Positions 19,056 to 61,914 of a DNA stretch of 64,000 bases are shown here, in pieces. Below the pieces are notes generated by a model, which was given only the letters and a program-made list of their open reading frames with translations, searched no databases and was not told the origin of the DNA. Each line of letters starts with the position of its first letter. The stretch's first letter is position 1. The translations under genes were made by a program, and so were the position numbers. Location: the NCBI GenBank assembly GCA_964617015.1, contig CAZTVG010000001.1, forward strand, positions 46,584 to 110,583. Direction: 5' to 3'. The stretch is from Candidatus Woesearchaeota archaeon (lineage in GTDB: Archaea; Nanobdellota; Nanobdellia; Pacearchaeales; GW2011-AR1).

Positions 19056-19529
19056 CTAAAGATTACTTTCAAACTCCATTAAACGGATAATGGTAGCCCC
19101 TAAAGGTACAACGCATTTCTCTGCCAATGGAAGCGCATAGACAAACCATCTTGGTATAACTAAAGTATCATATCTCACAGGCATTTTACTATCTTCTTGT
19201 TGGCGTTCACACACCAGTCGTTCATATGCCAATGCTAGCTTAAACTCATAAAAATCTTGGTGATTCATATGTTCTGCTACTCTTAAAGCATCATCTGCCA
19301 TTGGGCTTAATTCACACAGACCTTTTAACAAATTCTCTAAAGACCTAACATTATCAAGAAAAAACGTGTAATTACGCATTTCGAAATCATTCATCTCCCA
19401 GGGGTCTCCAAACAAATCAGAAGAGAGAAGCCAAGGATTCTCTCTCAATTTCCGTGCTAATTTAAATCGCTCTTCCGGCGTTATTTTCATTATGTTTAAC
19501 TTTTCTCCACTCATTGCTCGTCTGTACAA
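19056..19529 (-). CDS. hypothetical protein, compositionally atypical (Arg/Trp-rich, Lys-poor)
   Basis: 157 aa, no recognisable motif. Only about 6% Lys versus 12-15% in neighbouring proteins. Confidence 0.4.
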   Translation of the reverse strand: MYRRAMSGEKLNIMKITPEERFKLARKLRENPWLLSSDLFGDPWEMNDFEMRNYTFFLDNVRSLENLLKGLCELSPMADDALRVAEHMNHQDFYEFKLALAYERLVCERQQEDSKMPVRYDTLVIPRWFVYALPLAEKCVVPLGATIIRLMEFESNL

Positions 19530-19620
19530 AAATAGGTTTTTAATAATTATTCTTTACAATAATATACTTCAATTTCAAGATTCTAAAACTTTTTATAGAC
19601 TTATTTAGTGATATTTTTAT

Positions 19621-19704
19621 GTGGGGATGCCGGAGTGGTCAAACGGGCTGCGCTTAGGACGCAGTGGCTTAGTGCCTACGGGGGTTCGAATCCTCCTCTC
19701 CACA
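19621..19704 (+). tRNA. tRNA-Leu (UAG), long variable arm
   Basis: GTGGGGA-TG-CCGGAGTGGTCAAACGGG-CTGCG-CTTAGGA-CGCAG-TGGCTTAGTGCCTAC-GGGGG-TTCGAAT-CCTCC-TCTCCAC-A. Confidence 0.8.
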
Positions 19705-19715
19705 TTAAGACCTGT

Positions 19716-19755
19716 TAGCTTAGTGCGTACCTAGGTTCGAATCCTAGCTTCCGCA
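19716..19755 (+). other. diverged tRNA-Leu 3' half (variable arm + T-arm + acceptor 3' strand); preceding ATTAAGA resembles a UAA anticodon loop
   Basis: TAGCTTAGTGCGTAC-CTAGG-TTCGAAT-CCTAG-CTTCCGC-A aligns to the 3' 40 nt of the adjacent tRNA-Leu at about 75% identity with compensatory T-stem changes. No complementary 5' half (GCGGAAG...) was found in the window. Confidence 0.5.
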
Positions 19756-19773
19756 TTATTCAATAAAGAATTT

Positions 19774-22700
19774 CTATCTGCATTCAAGGAATAAAGAGTA
19801 TATCTCATCCTTAAAACCAATTACATCTTCAACATACCTAATATTTCCTTTACTGCAATCAGTATTCCATCCATTATATCCTCTCAAAGCTCTTGTCCAG
19901 CCACTATAAGTTTTTCCATTGCAAACATACTCCTTAGAAGAAGAAACATGATTATTAATTAATAAATTAATTCCAAAATTCACATTTTCATCAAAATTTA
20001 ATTTTTCTCCATGCACATTTTTATTTATCTGCATAATTCCCAGACTCGTTCCTTCATCTCCCGCAAGGATTTCTGCTTTGTTATTTTCACAATAAAGAGG
20101 GTTATTGTTTTCATATGGACCTTGACAGTGCCTTATTCTGCTTTCAGTGTATGCGACCTGCAATACAAGACATTCAAAAGAGCTTGCTCCTGTATCTGCT
20201 TTGACAGAGGCATCATCAATTCCTCTTTGCTGTTTTATTTCAACTGCAAGCTCAATTATTTTTTTCCCTAAAACCTGCTGGCACTCTGTGGATGTTGAAC
20301 AAGTAAGTTTAATTTCTTCTCTAGACTCTCCAGCCTCAATATATTCTCTAGGACCTTCAAATGTAGAATCTATATCAAAAATAATTTCAGCGCCATCGTA
20401 AAATTGCTTTCCTTCCAAATTTTTAATTAAATCAATAAATTCAGATTCAGGTTTGGTTTTTTCGAAATCTCTTACGCTTTCTGTTTCAGGAACAAGCACC
20501 CAACTTATTATATCAAAAGACCATGTCCATTTTTTTAAATTATCATCAAATTTGAAATACAACTCCTCACCCGTTATAATGTCTTCAGTCACAATAAACA
20601 ATTTCTTATCAGTAAATTTAATCCTTTCTGTATATAATTCAGCATCATCAAAAAAACCACCTTCATCATTGAATCTAGTTCTTTCAATTAACAATCTTAA
20701 ACCGTCAGAATAAGTTTTGTCTTTTAACTGAATCAAAAACTTCTTTTCTTTTTCAGGAGCATTTATATAAGCTTCATCCACATTTAACCACGAATCTAGA
20801 TTATTTTTATTACTAGATACATGCCATTCTGTTCCAGAATAAGTATAGTAGAAATCCTGCCCAAAAACCACTCCATCTTCAAACAAAAATATGGGATAAC
20901 TAAGAAAACCGCTGATTAATCCTGCTTTAATTGCTTCTTCTCCTGTTATGCTTCCTTCTTGAAGTTTCTCTGCCAATGTTTTTTCTCCTTCTTCAATTTT
21001 ATCAATTTCTGGTTTGAGTTTTTCAAATGCAATAATAGCAAGGTCTGCATAAACATCTCCTCTCAAAAGTGTCAAATAACCCTTCTGACTGCCAAAGAAA
21101 ACCCTATCAATATTATCACTAATCAAATTTATTTTATTGAAGTTATCATCTTCAGAATCAATTTCCTCCAAAAGACTCTCGAAGTCTTCAACAAAACCAC
21201 CTTCTTTTTGAAGTGTTTCAATGTAATTAGGTGCAACTTTTCCAAGCACTTCGTTTTCAAGATTTGTATTTCTTAGAGTACTTTTTACACTGTCTGTGTC
21301 AAGCCAGCACTGAATCTTTGTGTTTCCGCAATTTCCAACAGGTTGCCATCTTCCCTTTTCTGTATTCGCAAGTACATCTGTTCCCAAACCTGGATTGGCT
21401 GTTGCACATATTCTTGTGATTCCGCGATTGTAAATAGCAGGATTTGTGACTTCTGTTACTCCAGCCTGCAAGTTAGGAGAAAGTAAACTGTAAATACTTG
21501 GAGTCCCTGAAACACATGCTGTTTCAGAAGTTATATCTTTCTGAGCAGCCTGAGAAGCGACATATTGTTCTGTGATATAATTTACTCCAAAAGATGTTGT
21601 AACTTGCTTAAAGCCACACTCTTCCTGACCATTGACGATTATACACATCTCCCGATAACCAGAAGGAGCTGTAATATCTCTTGTTTCAGTGAAAAAGTCT
21701 CCTGCCTTGATAAACCCTTGAGCAATTATTCTTCTTACACCAGTATCCTGGTAGAAAGAACCTCCTGTTCCTCTAAGATAAACTTGGTAATACGCTGGGA
21801 AATCTTTTCCTGCATAGATGTGGTAAAATACCTTGTATTGTGAGACAGGTGGAACAGTGGCTGTGGTGAAGGGAATCTCGTCAAATCTTCCATAAAATTG
21901 TGCAGGAGAATCAGGGGTTGTAAGAGCGTCAAAGAAATTTCCTCCAGAAGGCCCTGCAATAGAAACAAAATTCTTGCAGACAGCTGTTCCTACATCTTCT
22001 ACAGACCTTGCCTTGAATGCCCGGAAAGAGTTTGCAGCATAATACTGTGTAAAGTATCCTGTGGATTGTGAGGCAGTATCCCATGCATTTGCAACTCCAA
22101 GATACTCTCCTCCTCCACGAACATTTTGTCCAAGCACTGTTCCAAGTCCTTTGGTAAGCGCTATTTTTGCCAGTGGAATAGACTGTCTCCAGAAGAAATC
22201 ACACATGTATATGCTATTAATTTCATCACAAATTCCAGTTGTTTGCCCTGTATCTAAACTTGCCTGCAAACACTGCTGATAAGAATCAAAAACAGTCAAC
22301 AAGCCATCTATGCCTGCGTGAACTCCTGAAAGGCAGATAGGAATTTTTACCTCTGGAAAGTTTGGTAGGCACAAGGCCAAACTGCCTGCTATTCCAGACT
22401 GTATAACATCTTTAACAGGATATGCTCCGCCTAAATCACATCTTGAACTTGGGCATACAACAGGATCACAAACATTAAACAATAAATTACAATCTGTGGG
22501 AGACATAAAATCCTGGCATTGTATGTCTGGAATACCTATTGCAGGTTCTCCCACTTGAATTGACCGGCCAAGTATTTGTACTTTCCTAACTCCATCATGA
22601 TATCCTCTTTCAGCATCTGAAATTGCCCTTACTGCCTTAATTGCCAATGAAGATGATTTGCTTTTATCTAATCCTGGAAACTGATTGTAAGGTTGATTTG

Positions 22701-25700
22701 TCCCTGGATTTATCATTTCACAAGTATCATCACCTATTCCAGAATCAAACTCTGCTCTTCCATTTCTTCCCACATTGCAAAGCCAGAAACTTCGAACTAC
22801 TCCTGAAGCATCATAAGCTCTTATTGCCCCACCTATTGGTGTAGTTGGTTTAACATAAGCATACCAACCTTCTTTAACATTAAATGGAACAATTGCGGGA
22901 AATCCTGCGTAAATGCCTACCTCATAATATCTTACTCTTGGATTTACAAATTGATTTTGATAAGTTGTTGAATCATATCTTCTTAAAGCAAGTCCTAGAG
23001 GATTTATGTTATCTTCTTCTACAGGAGTCAAACTACCATCATTATTTATCCTGTAAGTTTGAGTTATTATGAAATTATTATTTAAAGTTAAAAGATATTC
23101 TTTTCCATCAGATTCGTCAAAAAATTTCTGGACAAATTCTTTATCTTCTATAGAATCACTCTTATAATTATTCCTTGCCCTTACTTCCTCAAATGTTTTA
23201 ACTTCAGTAATTGCATATTCCTTTAGTTTTTTAGTAGAGCCTATTATAACTGGACCACCATATTCACCTTCAAGAGTTTGTCTTTTGACATCTCTCTGTG
23301 TATTAACATAAATATCTGCAAGTTCTTTTTTGACTTCTGCCCGGGCAATTGCCCTTATTCTTTCATTTTCAGAATTCACAAGTCTTGAATTCAGCTGAAG
23401 ATTTCTTGCCTGTGTTAAAAATGAAGTGTCTGAATTTATTCTGGCAATTGCATCTGAAACAAGAACATCCTGATTTCCTATTTTAATTTTATCATTTTCA
23501 AAAACCCCTTTCAAATTATCACTTAATTCCTTGTTGAAATCACTATCAACATATTCTTTCAATACTTTTTCTGTATCTTCTCCAGCTTTCCCTAATTTTT
23601 CACGAATAGTTTTGAATTCCTGGTTTTGTTTTTCCATTCCTCCAAAGATAATGTCAATATCTGCATCTATTGCATCTGAATTATCAAGAAGACATGAATC
23701 CACGCTTCCATATGTTGCCATGGACTCTTTTTTATTGCAGAATTCAAACCACCCAGAGTCACCCCTCATGACATTCTGCCTTGCAATCCCCTTTCCTCCA
23801 AGATTTGAAAAGAAATTCTTTATAGTCAACGTGGTTCCGACCCCAAGACATGCAGCCTTTAGACTACTGACAACTGTTCCGAGCTTCCCATTTATATCCT
23901 GCCATTTTTCTAAAGTTTTATTTAAAGATTCAATTCTTTCTCTTGTTTTTTCAGGGGATAACTGAATTCCTCTTTTTTCAATTCCTATCTTAAATCTAAA
24001 TGGAACACTTGTTCTTGCGTAATTTATTTTTGGATTTATTGAGACTTTTGCCAGTTTCTTTAGGTTAACTTCAAGAAGTGTAAATTTATATTTGCTTCCA
24101 AAACTTTCCGGGAAGTTTTTGTTTAATCTTTTAGTAGAAGTTCCCAGAATAAAAGCTTTTGTAGCTTCTGTTGTGCTTCTTTCTATCTGAAGATTAACTC
24201 TTACTGTAGCTGTTGCCTCCCTGTCTAAATCATCTCTGCGCAAATCCAAAAGCTGGATGAATTCGTCTTTGCTTAAATGATTAATGCTATTCTTCCTAAG
24301 AGTTATTTTATAAGGGCTTCCTTCCGGAGGACTGACTAATATTTCTGCCGAAAACTCGTCAAGAGATGGCTCTCTTATTCTGTCAAAAACAATTCTGTAG
24401 GTTCGTCCATCAATCAAAACGTCTCTGACTGCACTTTCAGTGCTTGAAAGCTTGTAAGCATTTCTACAAATATCAGTCACAACAGAATCAGGATAACTAT
24501 CCCTGAATTCATCACATAACTCAATAGCTGTTCTTTTTTGTCCTGTTAACCACGCAAGTTCTATTTTTGAAAATAAAGCCGCTTCACCAAGAGTTTCTGT
24601 TAGTTCCCCAAAAGATTCTTCCTGGGGAAAACTTGCAATAACAGTATCATAATCTCTTTCTGCTTTCCCATAAAAATTACTGACATCTGCTGACAAGGAT
24701 GAAATGTCTGAATCCTGTGCTTCTGCAAAACCAACAATAGCAAGAGTTTTTCCAAAAACCTTTTCTGACTCTCTGAAAGAAACAGATTCAAATGATTGTC
24801 CTGAAAGAAATCTGAGCCCTTTTTCTACACTTGAAAAAGCACCCTTAAACCCTTCCTTGATTAACTGATTCAAGTTGTCTATGTTTGAAGAAGGGAATCT
24901 GTTTACAAATCCACCAATAGAATTTAATACATTTTCTGTTAAAGCTTCTCCCTGGCCAGGCATGGAAACAGTAACAATAAATAAATTTTGTTCAGCTGTG
25001 CCAATGCCTTCTGTTCCAACATATGCGAGATAAACTGATTTCTCAGTTTCCTTACCTTTTTCAATCTCCTGGTAAAGTCTGTCCCCAACACTAACTTCAA
25101 TTGGTTTTCCTTCTATTTTCAGGTTTATTTTCGGATTGATTGTCATATCAAAAACACCCCTTCTCACATCTTCCCTGCAGCTAATCCTGACTCCCTCATT
25201 TACACCGTTTTTAATTATTCTTGTTACCTGACACTTGTTTTCAAGGAATCTTTCTCCTTCCTTGACCTCGACAACATCTTCATTTATTCTTAATTTTGCC
25301 CTTGTGTTTGGATTTTCCAAACCATTTAGCCTAACCTGCATTGACCCAAGACAATAATTAAAGCCAGGCATGAAAATTTCCCTTGATGTTTCGCCTACAT
25401 TAAGATTCACAGTCTGAAGTTTTCTTTTTACACCTGAAGTCCCAGAGCCATAGGTCTCTCTGTCAGAATAAATTGAAATTGATGCACCTAGATTATCAAT
25501 TGAATCTGCTCTCAGATACCCCTTACCTCTCCAAAAGCCATACTGACGGAAATTTTCCTCCCACTGCTCATCACTTAATTCAGGAAGGTAAAAATTAGCT
25601 CTTCCCACACCAAAAGCATTTTTTACATCATACCTTATTGTTGCTGTTAAATTTCCCAGAATAAATTCAGGCATTGCAGATTCATTTGCCTGCCTTCTCA

Positions 25701-26184
25701 GGACTATGACCGCATAACCTATGTTATTCAAAACAGGCTGGTTAAGCTGGGCACCATATCTCCCCAAGGCAGCTCTTGCAGGCACATAAGTCACTCCAAC
25801 AACTTCTTTAGGTTTTGGTCCTGCAAAAGAAAAAATAATATTATTAATGGCTTCAATTTTTATCAAAGGATTTAATTGTGTTGCAACTATTGGACAAAAA
25901 ACAGGAACGTTCTGATCTTCAAGGAGGTCGCTTCTTACAACAGATGGCTCACAACCCAAAGGGTTAACCTGAAGAATAAAATCCTGTCCTGCTTCACACA
26001 TGCTTCTGTCAAATAAAGGAAACTGCAAATCTCCCTGGAAAGGAACAAAAGTCGGGTAATAAGCAACATTGGAACGTGAGTAAGTATTGCTAGCACCACT
26101 GAAAATTTGCGATGAAATTAAAGATAATGCAAATACAATTCCAATTAATAATAAAATTCCGATTACTATTTGTTTTTTCTTCAT
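19774..26184 (-). CDS. giant secreted protein (2136 aa) with N-terminal signal/TM, central Cys-rich region and C-terminal lytic transglycosylase (SLT/lysozyme-like) domain
   Basis: N-terminus MKKKQIVIGILLLIGIVFALSLI. C-terminal 130 aa carry SLT family motifs AYTES (catalytic Glu-Ser), GIMQIN (GLMQ motif) and ALRGYNGW (AYNxG motif). Confidence 0.7.
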   Translation of the reverse strand: MKKKQIVIGILLLIGIVFALSLISSQIFSGASNTYSRSNVAYYPTFVPFQGDLQFPLFDRSMCEAGQDFILQVNPLGCEPSVVRSDLLEDQNVPVFCPIVATQLNPLIKIEAINNIIFSFAGPKPKEVVGVTYVPARAALGRYGAQLNQPVLNNIGYAVIVLRRQANESAMPEFILGNLTATIRYDVKNAFGVGRANFYLPELSDEQWEENFRQYGFWRGKGYLRADSIDNLGASISIYSDRETYGSGTSGVKRKLQTVNLNVGETSREIFMPGFNYCLGSMQVRLNGLENPNTRAKLRINEDVVEVKEGERFLENKCQVTRIIKNGVNEGVRISCREDVRRGVFDMTINPKINLKIEGKPIEVSVGDRLYQEIEKGKETEKSVYLAYVGTEGIGTAEQNLFIVTVSMPGQGEALTENVLNSIGGFVNRFPSSNIDNLNQLIKEGFKGAFSSVEKGLRFLSGQSFESVSFRESEKVFGKTLAIVGFAEAQDSDISSLSADVSNFYGKAERDYDTVIASFPQEESFGELTETLGEAALFSKIELAWLTGQKRTAIELCDEFRDSYPDSVVTDICRNAYKLSSTESAVRDVLIDGRTYRIVFDRIREPSLDEFSAEILVSPPEGSPYKITLRKNSINHLSKDEFIQLLDLRRDDLDREATATVRVNLQIERSTTEATKAFILGTSTKRLNKNFPESFGSKYKFTLLEVNLKKLAKVSINPKINYARTSVPFRFKIGIEKRGIQLSPEKTRERIESLNKTLEKWQDINGKLGTVVSSLKAACLGVGTTLTIKNFFSNLGGKGIARQNVMRGDSGWFEFCNKKESMATYGSVDSCLLDNSDAIDADIDIIFGGMEKQNQEFKTIREKLGKAGEDTEKVLKEYVDSDFNKELSDNLKGVFENDKIKIGNQDVLVSDAIARINSDTSFLTQARNLQLNSRLVNSENERIRAIARAEVKKELADIYVNTQRDVKRQTLEGEYGGPVIIGSTKKLKEYAITEVKTFEEVRARNNYKSDSIEDKEFVQKFFDESDGKEYLLTLNNNFIITQTYRINNDGSLTPVEEDNINPLGLALRRYDSTTYQNQFVNPRVRYYEVGIYAGFPAIVPFNVKEGWYAYVKPTTPIGGAIRAYDASGVVRSFWLCNVGRNGRAEFDSGIGDDTCEMINPGTNQPYNQFPGLDKSKSSSLAIKAVRAISDAERGYHDGVRKVQILGRSIQVGEPAIGIPDIQCQDFMSPTDCNLLFNVCDPVVCPSSRCDLGGAYPVKDVIQSGIAGSLALCLPNFPEVKIPICLSGVHAGIDGLLTVFDSYQQCLQASLDTGQTTGICDEINSIYMCDFFWRQSIPLAKIALTKGLGTVLGQNVRGGGEYLGVANAWDTASQSTGYFTQYYAANSFRAFKARSVEDVGTAVCKNFVSIAGPSGGNFFDALTTPDSPAQFYGRFDEIPFTTATVPPVSQYKVFYHIYAGKDFPAYYQVYLRGTGGSFYQDTGVRRIIAQGFIKAGDFFTETRDITAPSGYREMCIIVNGQEECGFKQVTTSFGVNYITEQYVASQAAQKDITSETACVSGTPSIYSLLSPNLQAGVTEVTNPAIYNRGITRICATANPGLGTDVLANTEKGRWQPVGNCGNTKIQCWLDTDSVKSTLRNTNLENEVLGKVAPNYIETLQKEGGFVEDFESLLEEIDSEDDNFNKINLISDNIDRVFFGSQKGYLTLLRGDVYADLAIIAFEKLKPEIDKIEEGEKTLAEKLQEGSITGEEAIKAGLISGFLSYPIFLFEDGVVFGQDFYYTYSGTEWHVSSNKNNLDSWLNVDEAYINAPEKEKKFLIQLKDKTYSDGLRLLIERTRFNDEGGFFDDAELYTERIKFTDKKLFIVTEDIITGEELYFKFDDNLKKWTWSFDIISWVLVPETESVRDFEKTKPESEFIDLIKNLEGKQFYDGAEIIFDIDSTFEGPREYIEAGESREEIKLTCSTSTECQQVLGKKIIELAVEIKQQRGIDDASVKADTGASSFECLVLQVAYTESRIRHCQGPYENNNPLYCENNKAEILAGDEGTSLGIMQINKNVHGEKLNFDENVNFGINLLINNHVSSSKEYVCNGKTYSGWTRALRGYNGWNTDCSKGNIRYVEDVIGFKDEIYSLFLECR

Positions 26185-26185
26185 C

Positions 26186-26338
26186 TTATTTCTTTTTTGA
26201 TTTTTTTATTTCTTCCTTTGCTTCTGGAAAAATGCTTCCAGTGTATCCGCATTTCCTGCATTCCATCATTCCTATATTTCCTCCTGCAACTAAATCCAGT
26301 TCCCTGCCCTTGCATCTCGGACAAAATTTTATTTTCAT
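26186..26338 (-). CDS. 50-aa zinc-ribbon protein (MKIKFCPRCKGRELDLVAGGNIGMMECRKCGYTGSIFPEAKEEIKKSKKK), not in ORF track
   Basis: Two CxxC pairs (CPRC, CRKC). Stop lies 2 nt before the giant gene ATG, between the 607-aa gene and the giant gene on the same strand. Confidence 0.5.
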   Translation of the reverse strand: MKIKFCPRCKGRELDLVAGGNIGMMECRKCGYTGSIFPEAKEEIKKSKKK

Positions 26339-26461
26339 TTTTAATTTAAACCAATTGCATTTTGCTTAATTTTAATCTCAAATTATTATCTGTTAATTCT
26401 TTTTTATCGGCTATTAACTTCATCTTGTGTAGCCCATATACATTAATATTTTTCATCATTA

Positions 26462-28285
26462 TCATCTAAAATTTATATCAAGTCCTTTAGTTTCAAACAA
26501 TAAGTAGTTGGTTTCAAGTTTTTCAAGAGTGTCTGGTTTAGAAAGACTTTCTGCATTTATTTCAATAGTGCCGGAGTTTATCAATTCAGACTCTAAAATG
26601 AAATAATTTTGTTTTCCGCCTCCTGCTAAAGCATTTGAAATTAACTGCTCTGGGACTTCAATATCAAAACACCTCTCCTTTGTCACGCCAAACACCCCAA
26701 GGATTCCTGATTTTGGAACTTTTACGCACTGCTCTGTTGTTGTCGCTCCTATATTTATTGAGGAACTCCTGTAAATATAAACCTGAATCTCATACTGATC
26801 TTCGCCCAATTCAACTGTTCTTTGTTCAGGATAAGCAATTGTTTTTGTTGAATCCGATGAAATAAAATGAATTATTGAATTTCCGCTGTAACTTGCTCCA
26901 TCAAGTTTCAAATCAATATTTTTCGTGTAAAGCTTGTCAAGAATAATATCTATGTTTCCAGAAGAAACAGTAGAAAATAAATATCTTGCATCTTTAAATC
27001 CGTCGGCTCTCGCATGGACATAACCATTCACACATTGCGGAAAATTTTCTCTGAGTGCTCCAAAACTTGTCTCTCCTATATTGCATTTATTTCCTAAACA
27101 TTCATAAGAAATTTCTGCATCAACAGATCTTCCTTGTCTGTCTCTTGTGTTCACCTGAATTTCTGCATTTTTATATAAGCAAAGCTCTGGAACAACATTT
27201 TCAATCGCAGTTGCATTCAAAGACTCACGTGGATTATTATTTTGTAAAACAACAGCCATCGGAAACTGGAAAATCTCATCTCCATCAGAAACCTGTACTA
27301 AAACAGGATATTTTATACTGTAAACAAAATGATAAGGAACATAACAAAATCCAATAATTCCCAAACCAGGCTGGTTTCCCACAGGATTTGAAATCAAAAT
27401 GATTCCTTCAGAAGGCGAAACTTCAAAACTATTCGGCCAGTTTCGAGAATTCAGGAACCTTACTTCTTCTTCCACAGGCAAATCAACCTTAAAGTAATCA
27501 TCACTATCTACTCCTGTTTCAATTGCCAGTGTATTTGCCTCAATAGCTTCCTGAAGCTCATCAAAAACCTTATTGGCATTCCAGACTAAAGGACTGCATG
27601 TAAGTTCAACGCCGTCAACAGGAGCATATGATCTCAGTGTATCAACAGCATATTCTTCAAGAAACAGAGTTTCCTGTTCATGTTCATAAACTTTTACTGC
27701 AGAATCATATAAATTTCCTAGCTTTGATTTGACCACAATCTTATGATTTTTTACAGTGGCAGATTCATTGCCAAAAACTATATTCAAATTCATACTCAAA
27801 TCAATCTCAACCTCATCATCTTTAATATTAGAGCTTGCCTCGGGTTCTGCCAGAGAAATTTCAAATCCCTGTTCATAATAATCATTAAAATTGCAGTCAT
27901 TAATCCTTTCTTCAATGAACTCTTCAAGCTGAGTTTCCATCTCCTTTTTAGTGGGAACCTGTTCTTTTTGGATGTTGTTTCCAGAAACATAATACCAGTA
28001 AGGAATAGGATTTCCCAAAAAATTCAGTTGAGAGGAAAAAGGCATATATTGGGAACCTGGTTCAAATTCCGGCAGAAAAATATAACCTCCCTGGGATTCC
28101 AGAATGCCTGCCCCCACAGATGTATCTTCTTCAAGACAAGCCAAGAAAGCTGTATAAACAGGTTCAATATTTGCAGGTAAATCAATACTTATTAAAGAAC
28201 CTCTTAAAATAAAATAAGAAAGAACTCCTGCGAGAATAAGTATGGCAATTATAATAAATATGGTCACCTGCCCTTTATTTTTCAT
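26462..28285 (-). CDS. 607-aa exported protein with type IV pilin-like (class III) signal peptide
   Basis: N-terminus MKNKGQVTIFIIIAILILAGVLSYF (K-G-Q then hydrophobic helix, as in archaeal prepilins). Large Cys-containing extracellular domain. Confidence 0.55.
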   Translation of the reverse strand: MKNKGQVTIFIIIAILILAGVLSYFILRGSLISIDLPANIEPVYTAFLACLEEDTSVGAGILESQGGYIFLPEFEPGSQYMPFSSQLNFLGNPIPYWYYVSGNNIQKEQVPTKKEMETQLEEFIEERINDCNFNDYYEQGFEISLAEPEASSNIKDDEVEIDLSMNLNIVFGNESATVKNHKIVVKSKLGNLYDSAVKVYEHEQETLFLEEYAVDTLRSYAPVDGVELTCSPLVWNANKVFDELQEAIEANTLAIETGVDSDDYFKVDLPVEEEVRFLNSRNWPNSFEVSPSEGIILISNPVGNQPGLGIIGFCYVPYHFVYSIKYPVLVQVSDGDEIFQFPMAVVLQNNNPRESLNATAIENVVPELCLYKNAEIQVNTRDRQGRSVDAEISYECLGNKCNIGETSFGALRENFPQCVNGYVHARADGFKDARYLFSTVSSGNIDIILDKLYTKNIDLKLDGASYSGNSIIHFISSDSTKTIAYPEQRTVELGEDQYEIQVYIYRSSSINIGATTTEQCVKVPKSGILGVFGVTKERCFDIEVPEQLISNALAGGGKQNYFILESELINSGTIEINAESLSKPDTLEKLETNYLLFETKGLDINFR

Positions 28286-28531: not shown

Positions 28532-28726
28532 TTAATATCTGTATCTTCCTGCCCTGAAGTAATTAATTCCTCCAAAAAGAATCAAGATTCCCCCGATAAA
28601 AATTATCCAGGGGTCTAAGCTGGACATTACTTCTGGGAGAGTAAAAATACTAAAAGGATAATTTAGAAAATACAATCCAAAAATTAGATACAGCAACAAA
28701 ACGATTAACCTAAATCTACCCCTCAT
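28532..28726 (-). CDS. small 2-TM membrane protein
   Basis: 64 aa, two hydrophobic helices. Confidence 0.3.
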   Translation of the reverse strand: MRGRFRLIVLLLYLIFGLYFLNYPFSIFTLPEVMSSLDPWIIFIGGILILFGGINYFRAGRYRY

Positions 28727-56773: not shown

Positions 56774-57397
56774 ATGTTAACTCCCCAGCAAACAGAAAAC
56801 ATCAGGAGACAAATAATTCAGCAAATAGAAAAATCTTTTCCTGAAGACAAAAAAGAATTTGCCAAGAGCCAGATAGAAGCCATGAATTCTGAACAGCTTG
56901 AAGGATTTTTAAATCAGAATAAACTCATGAAAACTCCCCAGATGTCTCAGGAATGTGTTTTTTGCTCTATCATCTCCGGAAATATCTCTTCTTATAAAAT
57001 ATCTGAAAACTCTAAAGCAGTGGCTGTTCTGGAAATAAATCCTGTTTCAAGAGGCCATTCTATTATAATTCCAAAAGAGCATATTTCAACTTCAGAAAAA
57101 GTTCATCAAAGCGTTTTTTCTCTGGCAAAAAAAGTTTCAAAGATGCTAAAAGAAAAATTAAAACCAAAAAATGTAACAACTGCTTCCCCAGATTTATTTG
57201 GGCATGAAATAATAAATGTTATTCCTGTATATGAAAACGAAAATCACGTTTCAGAAAGAAAGCCTGCAACACAGGAAGAACTCACGGAATTGCAAAAAAT
57301 TCTTGCAAAAACAGCCAGAAAAACACAGGGAAAAACAAAAAAAGTCAAAGTAGTGAATTCTGGGGGGAAAATCTGGCTACCAAAGAGAATTCCATAA
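56774..57397 (+). CDS. HIT-like domain protein with degenerate histidine triad
   Basis: 207 aa. CVFCSIISGNI...GHSIIIPKEHI HIT-like core, but the triad position reads GHEIINVIP (only the first His retained). Confidence 0.4.
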   Translation: MLTPQQTENIRRQIIQQIEKSFPEDKKEFAKSQIEAMNSEQLEGFLNQNKLMKTPQMSQECVFCSIISGNISSYKISENSKAVAVLEINPVSRGHSIIIPKEHISTSEKVHQSVFSLAKKVSKMLKEKLKPKNVTTASPDLFGHEIINVIPVYENENHVSERKPATQEELTELQKILAKTARKTQGKTKKVKVVNSGGKIWLPKRIP

Positions 57398-58219
57398 TCC
57401 TGTTTTCCATGAATAAAGCAAAATTAAAAAGCTAATTAAAAATACAGGAGAAAAAGGAATTCCGTGTCTTATCAAAACAGTTTTGTATTTTTTTCTTAAA
57501 GCGTTGATTTCTTCTTTCTTCAGTCCATCCCACCCTGCCTTTATATTTTTCCTCCCTACCTTGATGTCTTTGTAAAGCCAGTCTCCTTCTGTAAGCTGGC
57601 TGGTTTTTATTTTTTTTATCATGCAGGATTCATCAACTGCTTTTGCATAAAGATGCAAGTATGGAAGAATAAATATAATTATCCCGAAGTAAATCAGTAT
57701 AGCATTACTGAAAATACCGATTATCACCAAAATAATTGCCAAAAACAGAATGAGATTATAGATATTCTTGTTTTCTTTCAGTTGTTTTCCGAACTCTTTT
57801 CTGAATTTCCTGAAATTATTCAGACTAAAAGCCAGACTTACAGCCAAGCTGTAAACCGCGCCAACAAAAAGAAATATGAAAAGAAAACTCCCTAAAAGTT
57901 TCAGGTTCGCCGAAAAAGTTTCAGAAAAAGGCAAAACCGCTCCTAAAGCAATCATTAGTTTTGCGTCTCCTCCTGCAAACAATCTTCCGTAATAAAGAAG
58001 ATTTCCCAGGATGAAAAATATCAGCAAACCAATTAGGCCCTGATAAAAAAATCCAAAATTTCCTGAATGAAATAAAGAATAAAAAAACCTGAAACCGAGA
58101 GCAAAAATTACGAGGGAAAAATTAAGCCAGTTTGCAATTTCTCTCTTCTTCAAATCCTGAACAGTCGCAAAAACTATCCATATTAGTGCAAGAACTGATA
58201 AAAAAACAATTTCATACAT
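57377..58219 (-). CDS. prepilin/preflagellin peptidase (A24 family, PibD/FlaK-like)
   Basis: 280 aa polytopic membrane protein. DLKKREIAN and AGGDAKLMIALG (GxGDxKL) motifs. Confidence 0.55.
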   Translation of the reverse strand: MYEIVFLSVLALIWIVFATVQDLKKREIANWLNFSLVIFALGFRFFYSLFHSGNFGFFYQGLIGLLIFFILGNLLYYGRLFAGGDAKLMIALGAVLPFSETFSANLKLLGSFLFIFLFVGAVYSLAVSLAFSLNNFRKFRKEFGKQLKENKNIYNLILFLAIILVIIGIFSNAILIYFGIIIFILPYLHLYAKAVDESCMIKKIKTSQLTEGDWLYKDIKVGRKNIKAGWDGLKKEEINALRKKYKTVLIRHGIPFSPVFLISFLILLYSWKTGLWNSLW

Positions 58220-58497: not shown

Positions 58498-58836
58498 TTA
58501 CTGTGTGGGGCAAGTTATTGACGGGCATGCCTTTATATCATAATTTCTTGAGGCATATTCATCACTATTTGCCAGATTATAACAGGTCTCACTAAATTTA
58601 TCATTTGTCCCATCTTTAACTTCTCTTTCAACAGAACAATAATCAAAAGCACTTGAAGTAGAACAGGCAATACCGCAAGAAGTTTTAATGGTATCTATAT
58701 TATTTGTGGATACAAAAGGCAGAAGCCTGGCCCATCCTACTGTGAAACCCACTATAAGGACAACCAGAACAACCACCCCAAGAATTATCAAGATAATAGC
58801 ATTGGTGCTTAATCCCTGACCTCTTTTATCTTTCAT
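58498..58836 (-). CDS. pilin-like protein (class III signal peptide)
   Basis: MKDKRGQGLSTNAIILIILGVVVLVVLIVGF: basic N-terminus, RGQ, hydrophobic helix. Confidence 0.5.
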   Translation of the reverse strand: MKDKRGQGLSTNAIILIILGVVVLVVLIVGFTVGWARLLPFVSTNNIDTIKTSCGIACSTSSAFDYCSVEREVKDGTNDKFSETCYNLANSDEYASRNYDIKACPSITCPTQ

Positions 58837-58874
58837 ATCAAATTCAAGGTTATTTTGTTTAAAAATGTTTTTGT

Positions 58875-59192
58875 TTAAGGCAGTTTATATCTTATTTTTA
58901 AGTCATTTTTTTCCAGATAAAGATATCCTTCTTCAATATCCAGTGCTTTATTTATCTGTTCCACAGAAATGCCCCTACTCTTATAAAAATTGTATTCATT
59001 TATTTTTACACTGAACTCTTCCAGTACAGATACACTTGTAGAAAATTTTTTGAAACTGAAACTAGAAGAAAAAAAGCTTATTAGGGCTAGTGTGCAAATC
59101 ATAGCAACTCCCAGCACTAAAATTGTCACCGGAATATCTGCTTTACGATTTCTCATGAAGGAAGCGTTGCTAAAATATCTCTTGTTTTTCAT
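58875..59192 (-). CDS. pilin-like protein with conserved FSNASFMRNRKA leader
   Basis: MKNKRYFSNASFMRNRKADIPVTILVLGVAMICTLALISFF. Confidence 0.45.
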   Translation of the reverse strand: MKNKRYFSNASFMRNRKADIPVTILVLGVAMICTLALISFFSSSFSFKKFSTSVSVLEEFSVKINEYNFYKSRGISVEQINKALDIEEGYLYLEKNDLKIRYKLP

Positions 59193-59533
59193 CCTAACAC
59201 ACCCCTCATTTCATCAAGCTTAGCATCCAAGTCTGCATGAAATTCTTGTTGTTCCAGTCTGTTAAGAATAATGTTCTTCTTTGTATCATCTGCTAAAAAA
59301 TAAGCAAATAAGGATTTTTCCATTAACAAATCATCTTCTCTTTCAGTCTCAACAAATATTTTTTTTCTTGTCTGTGCTAATAAAAATGATGCATATACTG
59401 AAATAATTAAAATAACAATTATGATTATGGTGGCAACTACCCAGGTCATTGTTTCTCCTACCTGAGCCTTACGATTTCTCATGAAGGAAGCGTTGCTAAA
59501 AAATTGCTGAGTTTTTTGTCTTTTACTACGCAT
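59189..59533 (-). CDS. pilin-like protein with conserved FSNASFMRNRKA leader
   Basis: MRSKRQKTQQFFSNASFMRNRKAQVGETMTWVVATIIIIVILII. Overlaps its neighbours by 4-8 nt. Confidence 0.45.
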   Translation of the reverse strand: MRSKRQKTQQFFSNASFMRNRKAQVGETMTWVVATIIIIVILIISVYASFLLAQTRKKIFVETEREDDLLMEKSLFAYFLADDTKKNIILNRLEQQEFHADLDAKLDEMRGVLG

Positions 59534-60032
59534 TTTTTTCGGTTTTTCTTACAATCGATAAAATTTTAATTGAATAAATATCCCCTCCAGAAGTTAAAGA
59601 ATAAAATTCCCTTTCAATGCACTTTGCTAAATTCTCGTCCTCAATTTCTTTTTCAATCCCGCAACTTGAAATTAGATTTTTATTTCCTTCTGAAATATCA
59701 AAAACAAGGCTTTCTTCTTTGATAAATTCAATATTTAAATAAAACTGGCCTTGTTTATTCCACCCATAAACATCCTCGGTATTAAAATTTAAATTGCATT
59801 CTTCTAAAAAATTTTCCCTGGACTCTTCATTTAAAAATTCTTCTTTGAGGAATCCTGTAGCAAGTACCAAACAATCTGCAACATGATTCGTTAAAGCGTT
59901 GGCTTCTAATTCTCTTACATCATAAGGCTCACCATAAAAAATAGATACCATATAAACAATAGCTGCAGCCACTATGAACAAGATTGTAAACCAGTATACA
60001 GAGATTATCCTATCTGTCGCCTTTTTGTTCAT
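59526..60032 (-). CDS. pilin-like/minor pilin protein with N-terminal TM
   Basis: 168 aa, N-terminal MNKKATDRIISVYWFTILFIVAAAIVYMV. Confidence 0.4.
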   Translation of the reverse strand: MNKKATDRIISVYWFTILFIVAAAIVYMVSIFYGEPYDVRELEANALTNHVADCLVLATGFLKEEFLNEESRENFLEECNLNFNTEDVYGWNKQGQFYLNIEFIKEESLVFDISEGNKNLISSCGIEKEIEDENLAKCIEREFYSLTSGGDIYSIKILSIVRKTEKNA

Positions 60033-60421
60033 TTTTTATTTATCACAAAAAAATATTCCTCCTTGTTTGTTGTGTCCAAATTTGCATCAACCCTGACATC
60101 ATTAAAAAAGGAATATGAATAACCTCCTTTTTCCCTTAATTGAACAGTGATGATGTTATCACGAATCAGAACAACCTCCTTAAGATTCCTGCCTTCATCC
60201 AGCGCAGTTTCAATCGCATCTTCCATATTTAAGTGGATTATCATTCCAGGCTTTGCAGAATCGACAATTAATGCTATTTGCTTGGCATATTTTTCTTCCA
60301 AAACAGCAGAGCTTCCCATTTTTGTAAACAAGAACAAAACAAGTATTGAAAGAAAAACTAAATTTAAAACAATAAAAATTATGTTTTCTGTCAGAATATT
60401 TCCTTTCTTATTTTTTTTCAT
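60029..60421 (-). CDS. pilin-like protein
   Basis: MKKNKKGNILTENIIFIVLNLVFLSILVLFLF: G then hydrophobic stretch with Glu at +5. Confidence 0.45.
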   Translation of the reverse strand: MKKNKKGNILTENIIFIVLNLVFLSILVLFLFTKMGSSAVLEEKYAKQIALIVDSAKPGMIIHLNMEDAIETALDEGRNLKEVVLIRDNIITVQLREKGGYSYSFFNDVRVDANLDTTNKEEYFFVINKK

Positions 60422-60422
60422 T

Positions 60423-61343
60423 TTAAGACAAAGTAGTTATTGAGCTACACCCAAGTGTTCTAAACTCTTCTGAATTAACCTCAATTATCGAGGGCGAAAG
60501 ATATTCATTCCCGGATAAACCTTCAACAAGAATTCCTACAAAATATCCTCCAGCTCCTCCTCCTGCTCCTGCTATTGCTGCCACCCCAAGACTAATTCCC
60601 CATGCACCTCCTATGACAGGTGTAAAAACTATTGCTGCCACAGTTCCAACCCCGATTGCTGCCCATGTCAATTTACTAATTTCGCTTGTGATTCCCATCA
60701 TAACATAATACTGTTTATTCAAGTCCAAAGAACCAAACTCTACGCCTTGGCTACTAAATCGCTCTTTTAGACCATTTAAATCATTTGTGCCATATAAATA
60801 ATTGAGATAGGTTTCATCTTTTCCAATCACTTGATTGTCCTGCATATAAATATAAAGTCCTTCCTTATCAAGCGTGCCATCTGTTAACACTTCATTCACA
60901 CTGTCATCAAAAGCCACCTGTGCGCAGATTGAACAATAAAGGTTTTCTTTCAAATCACTGCCAACATAATTAATTTTTCCTTCCCCAAACATCCACCAAC
61001 AGGTAGCCAGCTCTTCTGCCAAGACACCATAAATCTCATCCTTGGTTTTTGCTTTTTCTATCACTGGCTTAGTCAAAACTTCACAACTACCATCATTTGT
61101 CAAGCACAGATAAGTACGTTGGCATTTTAATGGAACAGAGCCTGTTGGTAAAATAGAACTTCCTCTTGTAACAACAGAATTATGGCAGATTTCCTTATCT
61201 GTGATTTCTCCAAGATTAAGCCTGAAAAAAATAAATAAAACAATTACGAAGCTCACTATAAGAATTATCATAGTAACAATTTGGGTTGTTGTTAATTCTC
61301 CTTTGCGATTTTTCTTGAAAAATTGTTCTCTTTTGCTTTTCAT
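60423..61343 (-). CDS. pilin-like protein (306 aa) with Gly-rich C-terminal hydrophobic segment
   Basis: MKSKREQFFKKNRKGELTTTQIVTMIILIVSFVIVLFIFF. Confidence 0.45.
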   Translation of the reverse strand: MKSKREQFFKKNRKGELTTTQIVTMIILIVSFVIVLFIFFRLNLGEITDKEICHNSVVTRGSSILPTGSVPLKCQRTYLCLTNDGSCEVLTKPVIEKAKTKDEIYGVLAEELATCWWMFGEGKINYVGSDLKENLYCSICAQVAFDDSVNEVLTDGTLDKEGLYIYMQDNQVIGKDETYLNYLYGTNDLNGLKERFSSQGVEFGSLDLNKQYYVMMGITSEISKLTWAAIGVGTVAAIVFTPVIGGAWGISLGVAAIAGAGGGAGGYFVGILVEGLSGNEYLSPSIIEVNSEEFRTLGCSSITTLS

Positions 61344-61440
61344 CCTACAATTCCTATTTTTCTTAGCATGAAATAAATTCCCGCGAAAGCTAATCCAAAA
61401 AAAACAATCCAGGTTAAATATTTTATGAAACTTTCAAGGC

Positions 61441-61914
61441 TCATTTTTCTCTGATAATTATTTTACTTTCCGATTTTAATACTTCAACCGAGACAGAGGG
61501 GCTTTCTATTTTAATCTCTCCGAAATCCTCCAACTCTGGAACAATCTCACAGATACCTTTTCCATCACACTCTTTTATTTGTCTGTCAGTTACAAACAAT
61601 ATGGTATCAATAACATCATCACATATGCATAAACAATTTTCCCCAGAACAGGAGTTAGGTTTTTTTTCTCCAACAAAACTAAACAAATTCCATCCGGCAG
61701 GAGTTATGTCTGAAACCACCTCTTTGGATACTTCTTCATTCATTATGACATCTTTAAGCCTTTCCAAAGAAGATTCAGCCTTTATTCTGTTCTGGTTATC
61801 CACAGAATTAAAATAAAGAGATGTAAGAAAAAACGCCAAAAAGCCTATGGCAATTACTGCAAGTATCATTTTTAAGGTTTCTTCAGCAAGCAAAAATCCC
61901 TTTTTTTTCATCAT
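61441..61914 (-). CDS. type IV pilin-like protein (G-F..E+5 signature)
   Basis: MMKKKGFLLAEETLKMILAVIAIGFLAFFL resembles the bacterial/archaeal prepilin cleavage motif G|FxxxE. Confidence 0.5.
   Translation of the reverse strand: MMKKKGFLLAEETLKMILAVIAIGFLAFFLTSLYFNSVDNQNRIKAESSLERLKDVIMNEEVSKEVVSDITPAGWNLFSFVGEKKPNSCSGENCLCICDDVIDTILFVTDRQIKECDGKGICEIVPELEDFGEIKIESPSVSVEVLKSESKIIIREK

What the first reader, a model, noticed from the sequence alone, without database searches (positions are those of the whole stretch)
19774..28285. Candidate host-interaction system: pilin-like exported protein, zinc-ribbon protein, and 2136-aa secreted giant with lytic transglycosylase domain
Three co-directional, tightly spaced genes lie on the minus strand. 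(1) A 607-aa protein has a K-N-K-G-Q plus hydrophobic-helix class III (type IV pilin-like) signal peptide. (2) A 50-aa Cys4 zinc-ribbon protein has its stop 2 nt before the next ATG. (3) A 2136-aa signal-peptide protein has a C-terminus (about 19777-20170) carrying the three SLT/goose-lysozyme motifs: catalytic E-S (AYTESRIRH), G-[IL]-M-Q (SLGIMQIN) and Y-N-x-G (RGYNGW). Peptidoglycan-cleaving domains have no substrate in a murein-less archaeon. A giant surface protein that displays one suggests attack on, or feeding from, bacterial cell walls, or it is a horizontally acquired phage or bacterial module. The pilin-type signal links the operon to the type IV pilus machinery encoded at 57-64 kb. 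The operon lies directly next to the tRNA-Leu and tRNA 3' half junction, and a tRNA-Val-like element plus a LAGLIDADG gene sit on its other flank.
Basis: partly seen in the sequence, partly recalled or inferred. Interest (0 to 1): 0.85.

Follow-up and report, generated by a model that had tools for sequence, protein, structure and literature searches.

The report
Giant archaeal wall-cutting surface protein operon
A Pacearchaeota-type (DPANN) archaeon encodes a conserved operon for a pilin-like protein and a secreted 2136-residue giant ending in a bacterial-cell-wall-cutting enzyme; this kind of protein is already published, but its fixed partner genes and its link to pili appear not to have been described.

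Summary

The main idea is already published: giant extracellular murein-transglycosylase proteins of Pacearchaeota and Woesearchaeota that suggest bacterial hosts (Castelle 2021, fam00969; Rinke 2013; Castelle 2015).

What I add:
- The conserved unit is a 64-aa membrane protein, the 607-aa prepilin-like protein and the giant. The 607-aa gene is upstream in 77 of 80 loci, beside TFIIB and S8e, so the locus is chromosomal, not mobile.
- The Zn-ribbon gene is a clade-specific insertion (1 of 80 loci).
- The hydrolase is a swappable payload. Of 71 tails, 38 carry GH23 and 33 do not; a few relatives carry VanY, Amidase_2 or M23.
- In relatives, GH23/SLT modules, including the giant's divergent type, sit on pilins of the pilus locus that is syntenic with window 57-64 kb.

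The function of the 1650-residue core remains unknown. This is a new member of a known kind, with moderately interesting extensions.

The parts
28532..28726 (-).
   Evidence: A homolog lies on the same strand within 1.2 kb upstream of the 607-aa gene in 49 of 63 loci that have enough upstream sequence; the median gap is 151 nt.
26462..28285 (-). 607-aa prepilin-like protein (class III signal plus a ~570-aa globular part of unknown fold); obligatory partner of the giant
   Evidence: An ortholog lies immediately upstream of the giant in 77 of 80 loci; the other 3 are truncated there. The gap is mostly -50 to +80 nt. The N-terminal motif [KR][GAS]-Q-[VIL]-[TS]-x-F-I-I-I-A follows a basic leader of variable length in 69 orthologs, and Q6 and F10 are invariant. 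There is no Pfam, NCBIfam or PDB sequence match.
28205..28285 (-). Class III (prepilin-type) signal peptide of the 607-aa protein: MKNKG|QVTIFIIIAILILAGVLSYFIL
   Evidence: The cleavage site after Gly5 is inferred from the motif, not shown.
26186..26338 (-). 50-aa Cys4 zinc-ribbon protein; a clade-specific insertion, not a conserved component
   Evidence: Only weak zinc-ribbon Pfam and NCBIfam hits. Between the two conserved genes it is present only in this organism (L001) and in L076; most other loci have no room for it.
19774..26184 (-). 2136-aa secreted giant protein (member of the published DPANN giant murein-transglycosylase family)
   Evidence: 464 or more homologs at 40-70% identity, named Pacearchaeota or Nanoarchaeota where a name exists. 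Relatives were found at 480 places in a one-genome-per-species collection. There are 1102 clusters at 50% identity.
26095..26184 (-). Sec-type signal peptide of the giant (about 30 residues); the only hydrophobic segment in the protein
   Evidence: Kyte-Doolittle scan. Orthologs have a hydrophobic region followed by an [IV]-S-A-like site. Cleavage is inferred.
21085..26037 (-). Conserved core, residues ~50-1700; Cys-rich, unknown fold and function
   Evidence: About 100% of relatives cover it, with 65-70% identity at residues 50-350 and 1200-1600 and about 30 invariant Cys. No PDB sequence relative. The AF2 model of residues 1045-1700 has low confidence (pLDDT 55). Only a generic ~115-aa beta-sandwich match was found. 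No remote relatives outside the family.
20320..20952 (-). Optional middle module, residues ~1745-1955; Trp-rich, possibly two weak repeats, unknown function
   Evidence: Present in 32 of 71 tails, independent of whether GH23 is present. The internal repeat is only weakly supported (E 0.007).
19777..20301 (-). Divergent GH23 (SLT/goose-lysozyme-like) domain, residues 1962-2136; motifs E2014-S2015, G2049-I-M-Q2052 and Y2103-N-G2105
20143..20145 (-). Codon of the predicted catalytic Glu2014
57377..58219 (-). Prepilin (type IV leader) peptidase, the enzyme expected to process the 607-aa protein and the pilins
   Evidence: PF01478, E 2.6e-12, 47.5 bits against a cut-off of 26.5. It is 56% identical to the ortholog in L084.
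58498..61914 (-). Cluster of seven pilin-like ORFs. In relatives, orthologs of three of them (58875-59192, 59526-60032, 60029-60421) carry GH23/SLT domains
   Evidence: N-termini. BLAST to SLT-bearing proteins, E down to 4e-45. Colinear loci L083 and L084.
62289..63968 (-). Conserved protein of the pilus locus, cut by the window end (the orthologs are ~722 aa); a membrane-platform role is my guess. In relatives the T2SSE ATPase gene follows, beyond this window
   Evidence: 70-74% identical to L083 and L084 genes that sit one small gene away from a PF00437 ATPase.

Best explanation
This is the Pacearchaeota version of a lineage-wide surface module with three chromosomal genes: a 64-aa membrane protein, a ~610-aa protein with a prepilin-type signal, and a Sec-secreted ~2000-aa giant.

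Proposed mechanism:
1. The giant has no membrane anchor of its own. I propose that it is held at the cell surface by the prepilin-like partner. After cleavage by the prepilin peptidase encoded at 57377-58219, the partner keeps a hydrophobic N-terminal helix. That helix can sit in the membrane or in a type IV pilus-like filament.
2. The giant's conserved 1650-residue core acts as a scaffold or arm.
3. The C-terminus carries an exchangeable payload. In this organism the payload is a divergent GH23 glycosidase with a single catalytic Glu (E2014). It would cut the MurNAc-GlcNAc backbone of bacterial peptidoglycan at the point of contact.
4. This would serve to breach or grip the wall of a bacterial host or prey, or to release wall fragments for uptake.

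Shown here: the domain identity, the export signals, the conservation of the operon, the variability of the payload, and the presence of the same payload on pilins in relatives.

Inferred: the physical association of the three proteins, the coupling to the pilus, enzymatic activity, and the ecological role.
For: GH23 identity:
- Motifs are invariant in 35 sequences.
- The AF2 model has pLDDT 96.5.
- HHalign gives 99.5% (E 1.9e-22) to SLT domains that pass Pfam's cut-off, with YTES aligned on MQES.

Export:
- The giant has a single N-terminal hydrophobic segment and a Sec-like site.
- The partner's class III motif is conserved in 69 orthologs behind leaders of variable length.
- A prepilin peptidase is encoded in the window.

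Operon:
- The partner gene is upstream in 77 of 80 loci, with gaps of about -50 to +80 nt.
- The 64-aa gene is upstream in 49 of 63 loci.

Murein as the target:
- Relatives carry other peptidoglycan-specific enzymes in the tail or elsewhere in the protein: VanY, Amidase_2 and M23. Many also carry classical SLT.

Link to the pilus:
- Orthologs of three window pilins carry GH23/SLT domains in relatives.
- One has an insert 39% identical to the giant's own module (E 7e-30).
- These pilins lie in a T2SSE-ATPase, pilin and peptidase locus that is colinear with window 52-64 kb.

The published interpretation of this family agrees (PMC8204110, PMC9723730).
Against: - No activity, localisation or expression data exist.
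- 33 of 71 relatives have no GH23 in the tail. The conserved core and partner must therefore have a function that does not need this enzyme.
- The core fold could not be modelled (pLDDT 55).
- No host is known for Pacearchaeota, and cultivated DPANN have archaeal hosts.
- The operon and the pilus locus are about 31 kb apart in this window, so the coupling rests on shared signal type and domain sharing only.
- I could not test complementarity (a giant without hydrolase going with a pilin that has one).
Confidence: 0.6

Rival explanations
1. The pair of 607-aa protein and giant is mainly a structural cell-envelope component of the archaeon itself, for example an S-layer-like canopy with its anchor, as in SlaA/SlaB. 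The C-terminal enzymes are opportunistic add-ons with a secondary role.
For: The core and partner are universal, highly conserved (60% mean column identity for the partner; 61% for core residues 1045-1700) and sit beside housekeeping genes. In contrast, 33 of 71 tails lack GH23. The Cys-rich secreted protein contains at least one Ig/Fn3-like beta-sandwich.
Against: S-layer proteins usually evolve fast, whereas this core is 65-70% identical across the lineage. The payloads are overwhelmingly enzymes that act on bacterial walls, which an envelope protein has no obvious reason to carry. The same payloads also occur on pilins.
Confidence: 0.25
2. It is a polymorphic-toxin-like antibacterial weapon. 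A conserved delivery region carries exchangeable C-terminal toxins that are released to kill or lyse competing bacteria, independent of any host attachment or pilus.
For: The C-termini vary on a constant N-terminal region. Payloads include the pretoxin PT-HINT domain (P0046, P0057), VanY, Amidase_2, M23 and a metalloprotease. An organism without murein needs no immunity protein against wall-directed toxins (inference).
Against: There is no variable immunity gene or orphan toxin cassette downstream. The next genes are the conserved TFIIB and S8e. The variability is between species and was not observed as cassette arrays. Murein hydrolases act poorly from outside on Gram-negative cells unless contact is made.
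Confidence: 0.2
3. The GH23 domain acts on a glycan other than bacterial murein: chitin, an archaeal host wall polymer such as pseudomurein, or the archaeon's own envelope during pilus assembly (as VirB1, EtgA and FlgJ do in bacteria).
Against: Relatives carry enzymes specific for the murein peptide (VanY, Amidase_2, M23) in the same family, in the tail where mapped. These archaea are not known to make murein (PMC8204110). Pseudomurein has beta-1,3 links that resist lysozyme-type enzymes (established knowledge).
Confidence: 0.1
4. It is a recently acquired phage or mobile-element module inserted at a tRNA gene, or an assembly chimera.
Against: The same gene order (partner, giant, TFIIB, S8e) holds in relatives only 44% identical. 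Relatives occur at 480 places in a one-genome-per-species collection. GC content is like the surroundings. No phage genes are adjacent. The identical protein comes from separate assemblies.
Confidence: 0.02

Closest known systems
[quoted passage not shown] 2021, PMC8204110; noted earlier by Rinke 2013 and Castelle 2015; also PMC9723730 and PMC10936187)
   Same: Same lineage (Pacearchaeota and Woesearchaeota), same size class (2000-3000 aa), predicted extracellular, with a C-terminal murein transglycosylase. Full-length homologs of the window protein carry Pfam SLT and are named accordingly (P0051, P0073).
   Different: The window protein's GH23 domain is a divergent subtype that Pfam does not detect. 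The papers I read do not describe the obligatory prepilin-like partner, the 64-aa gene, the payload variability (33 of 71 tails without GH23; a few with VanY, Amidase_2 or M23) or the SLT-bearing pilins. Castelle 2021 never mentions pili.
Bacterial family-1 lytic transglycosylases and goose-type lysozymes (CAZy GH23; Pfam SLT PF01464): Slt70, MltC, MltE, MltF, GEWL
   Different: A ~25-residue Cys-containing insertion follows the catalytic helix (HC...NPLYC), and there are 8 Cys in the module. It falls below Pfam's threshold. It is encoded by an archaeon at the end of a 2136-aa protein. Whether it is a lytic transglycosylase or a hydrolase is unresolved. The Asp that aligns with GEWL Asp86 is not strictly conserved, and GEWL Asp97 is Asn here.
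Modular type IV pilins and pilus-mediated episymbiosis (for example Saccharibacteria T4P, PMC11623550; bimodular pilins of Streptococcus sanguinis, from my own knowledge)
   Same: A class III signal followed by a large non-pilin module. In relatives, pilins of the syntenic locus carry an enzyme domain. Ultrasmall symbionts use T4P to bind hosts.
   Different: Archaeal system. The module on the 607-aa protein has no known fold. I found no report of pilins carrying SLT domains in these lineages in the searchable library.
Polymorphic toxin and effector systems (Rhs/CDI/T6SS effectors with PT-HINT; murein-targeting effectors such as Tse3 and Tae)
   Different: No immunity genes or cassette arrays. 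No Rhs/YD, T6SS or CDI delivery domains. The locus is a single-copy, syntenic housekeeping-like locus.
Machinery-associated specialised transglycosylases (VirB1, EtgA, FlgJ, phage T7 gp16, phi29 gp13, phiKZ gp144)
   Same: A GH23 or lysozyme-like domain tethered to a large envelope-spanning or penetrating apparatus (structural neighbours).
   Different: Those enzymes open the producer's or the target's wall for a defined secretion or injection machine. Here the producer is not known to have murein, and the carrier core has no homolog outside the family.

Membership tests
GH23 / SLT (PF01464) lysozyme-like transglycosylases | Catalytic Glu in an E-S motif at the end of the first core helix | tested here: met
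   E2014-S2015 (YTES). The Glu is invariant in 35 of 35 sequences. It aligns on MQES of Pfam-positive SLT domains in HHalign. Codon checked.
GH23 / SLT (PF01464) lysozyme-like transglycosylases | Motif II G-[LIV]-M-Q and motif III [AY]-Y-N-x-G | tested here: met
   G2049 is invariant; M2051 and Q2052 are conserved in 90% or more. Y2103, N2104 and G2105 are invariant.
GH23 / SLT (PF01464) lysozyme-like transglycosylases | Lysozyme-like alpha-helical fold | tested here: met
GH23 / SLT (PF01464) lysozyme-like transglycosylases | Scores above Pfam's gathering threshold for PF01464 | tested here: not met
   The window protein has no hit even at E <= 1. 16 of 35 relatives of the same subtype hit only weakly (best E 2e-4). 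Homology is nonetheless established by profile-profile comparison (99.5%) and by a profile search that reaches Pfam-positive SLT proteins at E about 1e-10.
GH23 / SLT (PF01464) lysozyme-like transglycosylases | Cleaves the MurNAc-GlcNAc bond of peptidoglycan (forming 1,6-anhydroMurNAc if a lytic transglycosylase) | not testable with these tools
   Needs a biochemical assay. The sequence gives no clear call between transglycosylase and hydrolase.
DPANN giant murein-transglycosylase family (fam00969, PMC8204110) | A protein of 2000-3000 aa from Pacearchaeota or Woesearchaeota, predicted extracellular, with a murein transglycosylase domain | tested here: met
   2136 aa with a signal peptide. Relatives are named Pacearchaeota or Nanoarchaeota. 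Full-length homologs carry Pfam SLT. Direct comparison with the fam00969 sequences was not possible.
Class III (prepilin-type) signal peptide / type IV pilin-like protein (607-aa protein) | A short basic leader, then [KR]-[GA] at -2/-1, then a hydrophobic stretch of about 20 residues | tested here: met
   MKNKG|QVTIFIIIAILILAGVLSYFIL. The motif is conserved in 69 orthologs with leaders of 3-35 residues, and Gln+1 and Phe+5 are invariant.
Class III (prepilin-type) signal peptide / type IV pilin-like protein (607-aa protein) | A cognate prepilin peptidase (Peptidase A24) in the genome | tested here: met
   PF01478 at 57377-58219, E 2.6e-12.
Class III (prepilin-type) signal peptide / type IV pilin-like protein (607-aa protein) | Cleavage by the peptidase and incorporation into a filament | not testable with these tools
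   Needs an experiment. No pilin-domain Pfam hit.
Polymorphic toxin systems | A constant N-terminal region with variable C-terminal toxin domains | tested here: met
   Tail census: 22 divergent GH23, 16 classical SLT and 33 without GH23. Pfam also finds VanY, Amidase_2, PT-HINT, M10, Ank and DUF1615 in a few tails.
Polymorphic toxin systems | An adjacent cognate immunity gene or orphan toxin cassettes | tested here: not met
   The downstream neighbours are the conserved TFIIB and S8e (59 of 80 loci have TFIIB). In the window they are tRNA-Leu and a non-conserved 157-aa ORF.
Phage or mobile-element tail or tape-measure lysin | Embedded in phage or mobile-element genes; patchy distribution | tested here: not met
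   Conserved chromosomal synteny and presence at 480 places in a one-genome-per-species collection. GC content is unremarkable.

The most novel reading that the evidence does not exclude
The 64-aa protein, the prepilin-like 607-aa protein and the giant form, together with the type IV pilus-like locus, one lineage-defining machine for breaching bacterial cell walls. The peptidoglycan-cutting module can be mounted either on the giant's tip or directly on pilins. If so, it would be a dedicated archaeon-to-bacterium contact apparatus. It would also be genomic evidence that Pacearchaeota and Woesearchaeota are episymbionts or predators of bacteria and not of archaea.
Probability: 0.35. Interest if true: 0.75.

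Novelty: new member of a known kind. Interest (0 to 1): 0.45.

Why it matters
The hosts and lifestyle of Pacearchaeota and Woesearchaeota are unknown, although these groups make up a large share of archaeal diversity. Their giant murein-cutting proteins are the main published clue that they interact with bacteria.

This analysis sharpens that clue in three ways:
- Annotation surveys based on Pfam or CAZy miss a whole subtype of the enzyme. 22 of the 38 GH23-bearing tails in my sample belong to that subtype, and the window protein has no Pfam hit at all. Reported absences, for example in the chimney Pacearchaeota of PMC11537232, may therefore be false negatives.
- The enzyme rides on a universally conserved three-gene module whose partner is a prepilin-type protein.
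- The same enzyme modules are found on pilins in relatives, which ties wall degradation to the pilus apparatus.

Together these give concrete, testable targets: partner binding, peptidase cleavage, localisation at contact sites, and a genome-wide complementarity census. None of this is demonstrated function.

Tried and rejected
- **Direct Pfam, NCBIfam and PDB searches:** The giant, the 607-aa protein and the last 208 residues gave nothing. Only profiles and structure revealed the GH23 domain.
- **Core by sequence:** The full-length profile against PDB found only weak g-type lysozyme matches to the tail and nothing for the core.
- **Core by structure:** The AF2 model of residues 1045-1700 (27-sequence alignment) had pLDDT 55 and pTM 0.31, and the most conserved Cys-rich stretch scored below 40. 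The Foldseek search of that model returned only generic ~115-residue beta-sandwiches (ApaG, GH3 C-terminal domain) at TM about 0.1. I do not interpret these functionally.
- **Remote relatives of the core:** The exhaustive HMM search found a closed family with no relatives of different architecture.
- **607-aa profile against PDB:** No credible hit.
- **AFDB fold search for the origin of the GH23 domain:** The library was unavailable.
- **Zn-ribbon as a conserved component:** Rejected.
- **Mobile or phage origin and assembly chimera:** Rejected.
- **The 2786-aa gene near the pilus locus in L083:** Not a member of the giant family.
- **Complementarity test (giant without hydrolase against pilin with hydrolase):** Not possible, because loci are limited to +/-10 kb and no contig could be matched between the two sets.
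- **Internal repeat in the middle module:** Only weakly supported (E 0.007).

Full report
**Observation.** The window is AT-rich (about 33% G+C). It carries three co-directional minus-strand ORFs at exactly the stated coordinates: 26462-28285 (607 aa), 26186-26338 (50 aa) and 19774-26184 (2136 aa). One nucleotide, not two, separates the Zn-ribbon stop from the giant's ATG. tRNA-Leu(TAG) at 19620-19705 and tRNA-Val(GAC) at 29888-29960 are genuine tRNAs. A sequence resembling the 3' half of a class II tRNA follows tRNA-Leu. ORF 28858-29898 is a LAGLIDADG protein. The identical 2136-aa sequence is on record from NCBI/ENA (118.5-kb contig) and from a Logan assembly (11.4 kb). A second 2136-aa member of the same 90% cluster comes from JGI/ENA (16.6 kb). 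The giant ORF is therefore not a chimera. A protein in the same 90%-identity cluster as the 607-aa protein is deposited as a hypothetical protein of a Candidatus Pacearchaeota archaeon.

**The C-terminal domain.**
- Direct searches fail. There is no Pfam or NCBIfam hit for the giant even at E <= 1, and no PDB sequence hit for the last 208 residues.
- The last ~175 residues are conserved in 63 of the 120 listed homologs.
- In a 35-sequence alignment, the Glu of YTES (E2014), the Gly of GIMQ, and Y-N-G of YNGW are invariant. Met and Gln of GIMQ and the following Trp are conserved in at least 90%.
- A profile of this alignment finds goose-type lysozymes in PDB (E 0.008). 16 of the 35 members hit Pfam SLT weakly.
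- A database search with the profile reaches proteins whose SLT domain passes Pfam's threshold, at E about 1e-10. HHalign between the two alignments gives 99.5% probability (E 1.9e-22), with YTES aligned on their MQES.
- The domain is therefore a divergent GH23 member. Its special feature is a ~25-residue Cys-containing insertion after the catalytic helix.
- Whether it is a lytic transglycosylase or a hydrolase cannot be decided from sequence.

**The family and what is already known.**
- The whole protein has at least 464 homologs at 40-70% identity, named Pacearchaeota or Nanoarchaeota where a name exists.
- Relatives occur at 480 places in a one-genome-per-species collection. An exhaustive HMM search with core residues 1045-1700 finds 1102 clusters at 50% identity.
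- The literature already describes this family. Castelle et al. [quoted passage not shown] They propose that these proteins bind or degrade bacterial walls, and they cite Rinke 2013 and Castelle 2015 for earlier sightings.
- Vigneron et al. 2022 (PMC9723730) and an oxygen-deficient-zone survey (PMC10936187) repeat the inference.

**Anatomy beyond the literature.**
- *Core.* Residues ~50-1700 are covered by essentially all relatives. Identity is 65-70% at residues 50-350 and 1200-1600, and about 30 Cys are invariant. The only hydrophobic segment is the N-terminal Sec-type signal.
- *Variable tail.* After residue ~1700 the proteins diverge. Among 71 complete tails, 22 carry the divergent GH23 subtype, 16 carry a classical SLT, and 33 carry no GH23. 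Pfam also finds VanY (2 tails), Amidase_2 (1), PT-HINT (1), a matrixin-like protease (1), ankyrin repeats (1) and DUF1615 (2). M23 appears in another relative. Several independent murein-specific chemistries on the same family of carriers argue that murein is the real target. They also show that the enzyme is an exchangeable payload and not the reason the core is conserved.
- *Core fold unknown.* There are no PDB sequence relatives. The AF2 model is poor (pLDDT 55), and only a generic beta-sandwich match was found. No remote homologs exist outside the family.

**The operon.**
- In 77 of 80 loci a homolog of the 607-aa gene lies immediately upstream on the same strand. The other three loci are truncated there. 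The gap to the giant is typically -50 to +80 nt.
- TFIIB lies downstream in 59 of 80 loci, usually followed by ribosomal protein S8e. This includes a relative only 44% identical. The locus is therefore chromosomal and vertically inherited, not a mobile island at a tRNA.
- The Zn-ribbon gene is found between the two conserved genes only in this organism and one relative, where it is well conserved. It is a real but clade-specific insertion.

**The pilin connection.**
- The 607-aa orthologs share the motif [KR]-[GAS]-Q-[VIL]-[TS]-x-F-I-I-I-A after basic leaders of 3-35 residues. Gln+1 and Phe+5 are invariant. This pattern is expected for a cleaved class III signal.
- The window encodes a prepilin peptidase (PF01478, E 2.6e-12) next to seven small ORFs with pilin-like N-termini.
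- The short SLT proteins found with the GH23 profile turn out to be pilin fusions:
  - Window ORF 60029-60421 matches, over its full length, the N-terminal 130 residues of 307-316-aa proteins with a C-terminal SLT (E down to 4e-45).
  - ORF 58875-59192 matches the N-terminus of 64 of the GH23-profile hits, nearly all of which carry Pfam SLT.
  - ORF 59526-60032 matches both ends of ~375-aa proteins in which the divergent GH23 module is inserted.
- Two such genes lie in loci with a T2SSE ATPase, a ~722-aa protein and pilins. In L084 the locus also holds the prepilin peptidase and is colinear with window 52-64 kb. The insert in L084 is 39% identical to the giant's own module.
- In the library searched, none of the listed papers on the transglycosylase of these lineages mentions pilins.

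**Mechanism.** I propose the following, at confidence 0.6. The secreted giant is tethered by the prepilin-like partner, and perhaps the 64-aa protein, at the membrane or on a pilus-like filament. It presents its C-terminal GH23 enzyme to cut the glycan backbone of a bacterial wall on contact.
- Shown: the domain identity, the export signals, the operon conservation, the payload variability and the domain sharing with pilins.
- Inferred: the protein-protein association, the coupling to the pilus, activity, substrate and ecological role.
- Main rivals: a primarily structural envelope role for the core and partner (0.25), a released antibacterial weapon of polymorphic-toxin style (0.2), and a non-murein substrate (0.1). 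A mobile-element or artefact origin is effectively excluded.

**Verdict.** The feature is a new, Pfam-invisible member of a published family. Three aspects appear not to have been described and give testable handles on the unknown hosts of these archaea: the conserved three-gene module, the swappable payload, and the SLT-bearing pilins. They rest on comparative sequence evidence only.

Noticed in passing
window 19706-19756 (+): Directly after tRNA-Leu(TAG) lies a sequence that looks like the variable arm, T-arm (GGTTCGAATCC) and 3' acceptor strand of a second class II tRNA, with no 5' half. Neither ARAGORN nor Rfam calls it. It could be a split-tRNA 3' half or a remnant.
   Followed up: partly
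window 52370-52490 (-): Rfam reports a tRNA match 121 nt long that ARAGORN does not report. It is probably an intron-containing tRNA.
   Followed up: no
window 52786-55278 (-): The RadA gene is interrupted by an intein with a LAGLIDADG endonuclease domain (Rad51, Intein_splicing and LAGLIDADG_3). The L084 ortholog has no intein (328 aa).
   Followed up: partly
window 28858-29898 (+): A free-standing LAGLIDADG ORF whose 3' end overlaps tRNA-Val by 11 nt. Its first ~85 residues match ~85-aa stretches that lie upstream of the operon, on the operon strand, in about 15 other loci. L017 has the full-length divergent version.
   Followed up: partly
window 30023-30976 (+): A SMODS/CD-NTase-like nucleotidyltransferase (PF18144, E 3e-9) next to a family 2 glycosyltransferase. 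It may be a defence-type signalling enzyme.
   Followed up: no
P0163 (263 aa, 3.5-kb metagenome contig): A gene call that combines a prepilin peptidase (PF01478) and an SLT domain in one 263-aa protein. It is either a true fusion or a merged call of adjacent genes. Either way it places the SLT-pilin next to the peptidase.
   Followed up: no
L084 1-1081 (-): Next to the T2SSE ATPase of the pilus locus in a relative is a further 454-aa protein with SLT and a faint LysM hit, so that genome has more than one murein-directed protein at the pilus locus.
   Followed up: no
L002 23302-26621 and L083 14411-20852: Other giant genes (more than 2700-3100 aa; one has faint MG2 and NPCBM_assoc hits) lie near the operon or the pilus locus in relatives. 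They are not homologous to the giant studied here.
   Followed up: partly
window 19056-19529 (-): A 157-aa ORF (TTG start; called as 152 aa in the Logan assembly) lies downstream of the giant beyond tRNA-Leu. It has no Pfam hit, and a homolog was detected in only one other locus (L006).
   Followed up: partly
L069 and L071 (record titles): Two genome records that carry the operon are labelled 'bacterium' and 'Bacillota bacterium'. The gene content (607-aa gene, giant, TFIIB, S8e) shows that they are DPANN archaeal contigs, misbinned or mislabelled.
   Followed up: partly
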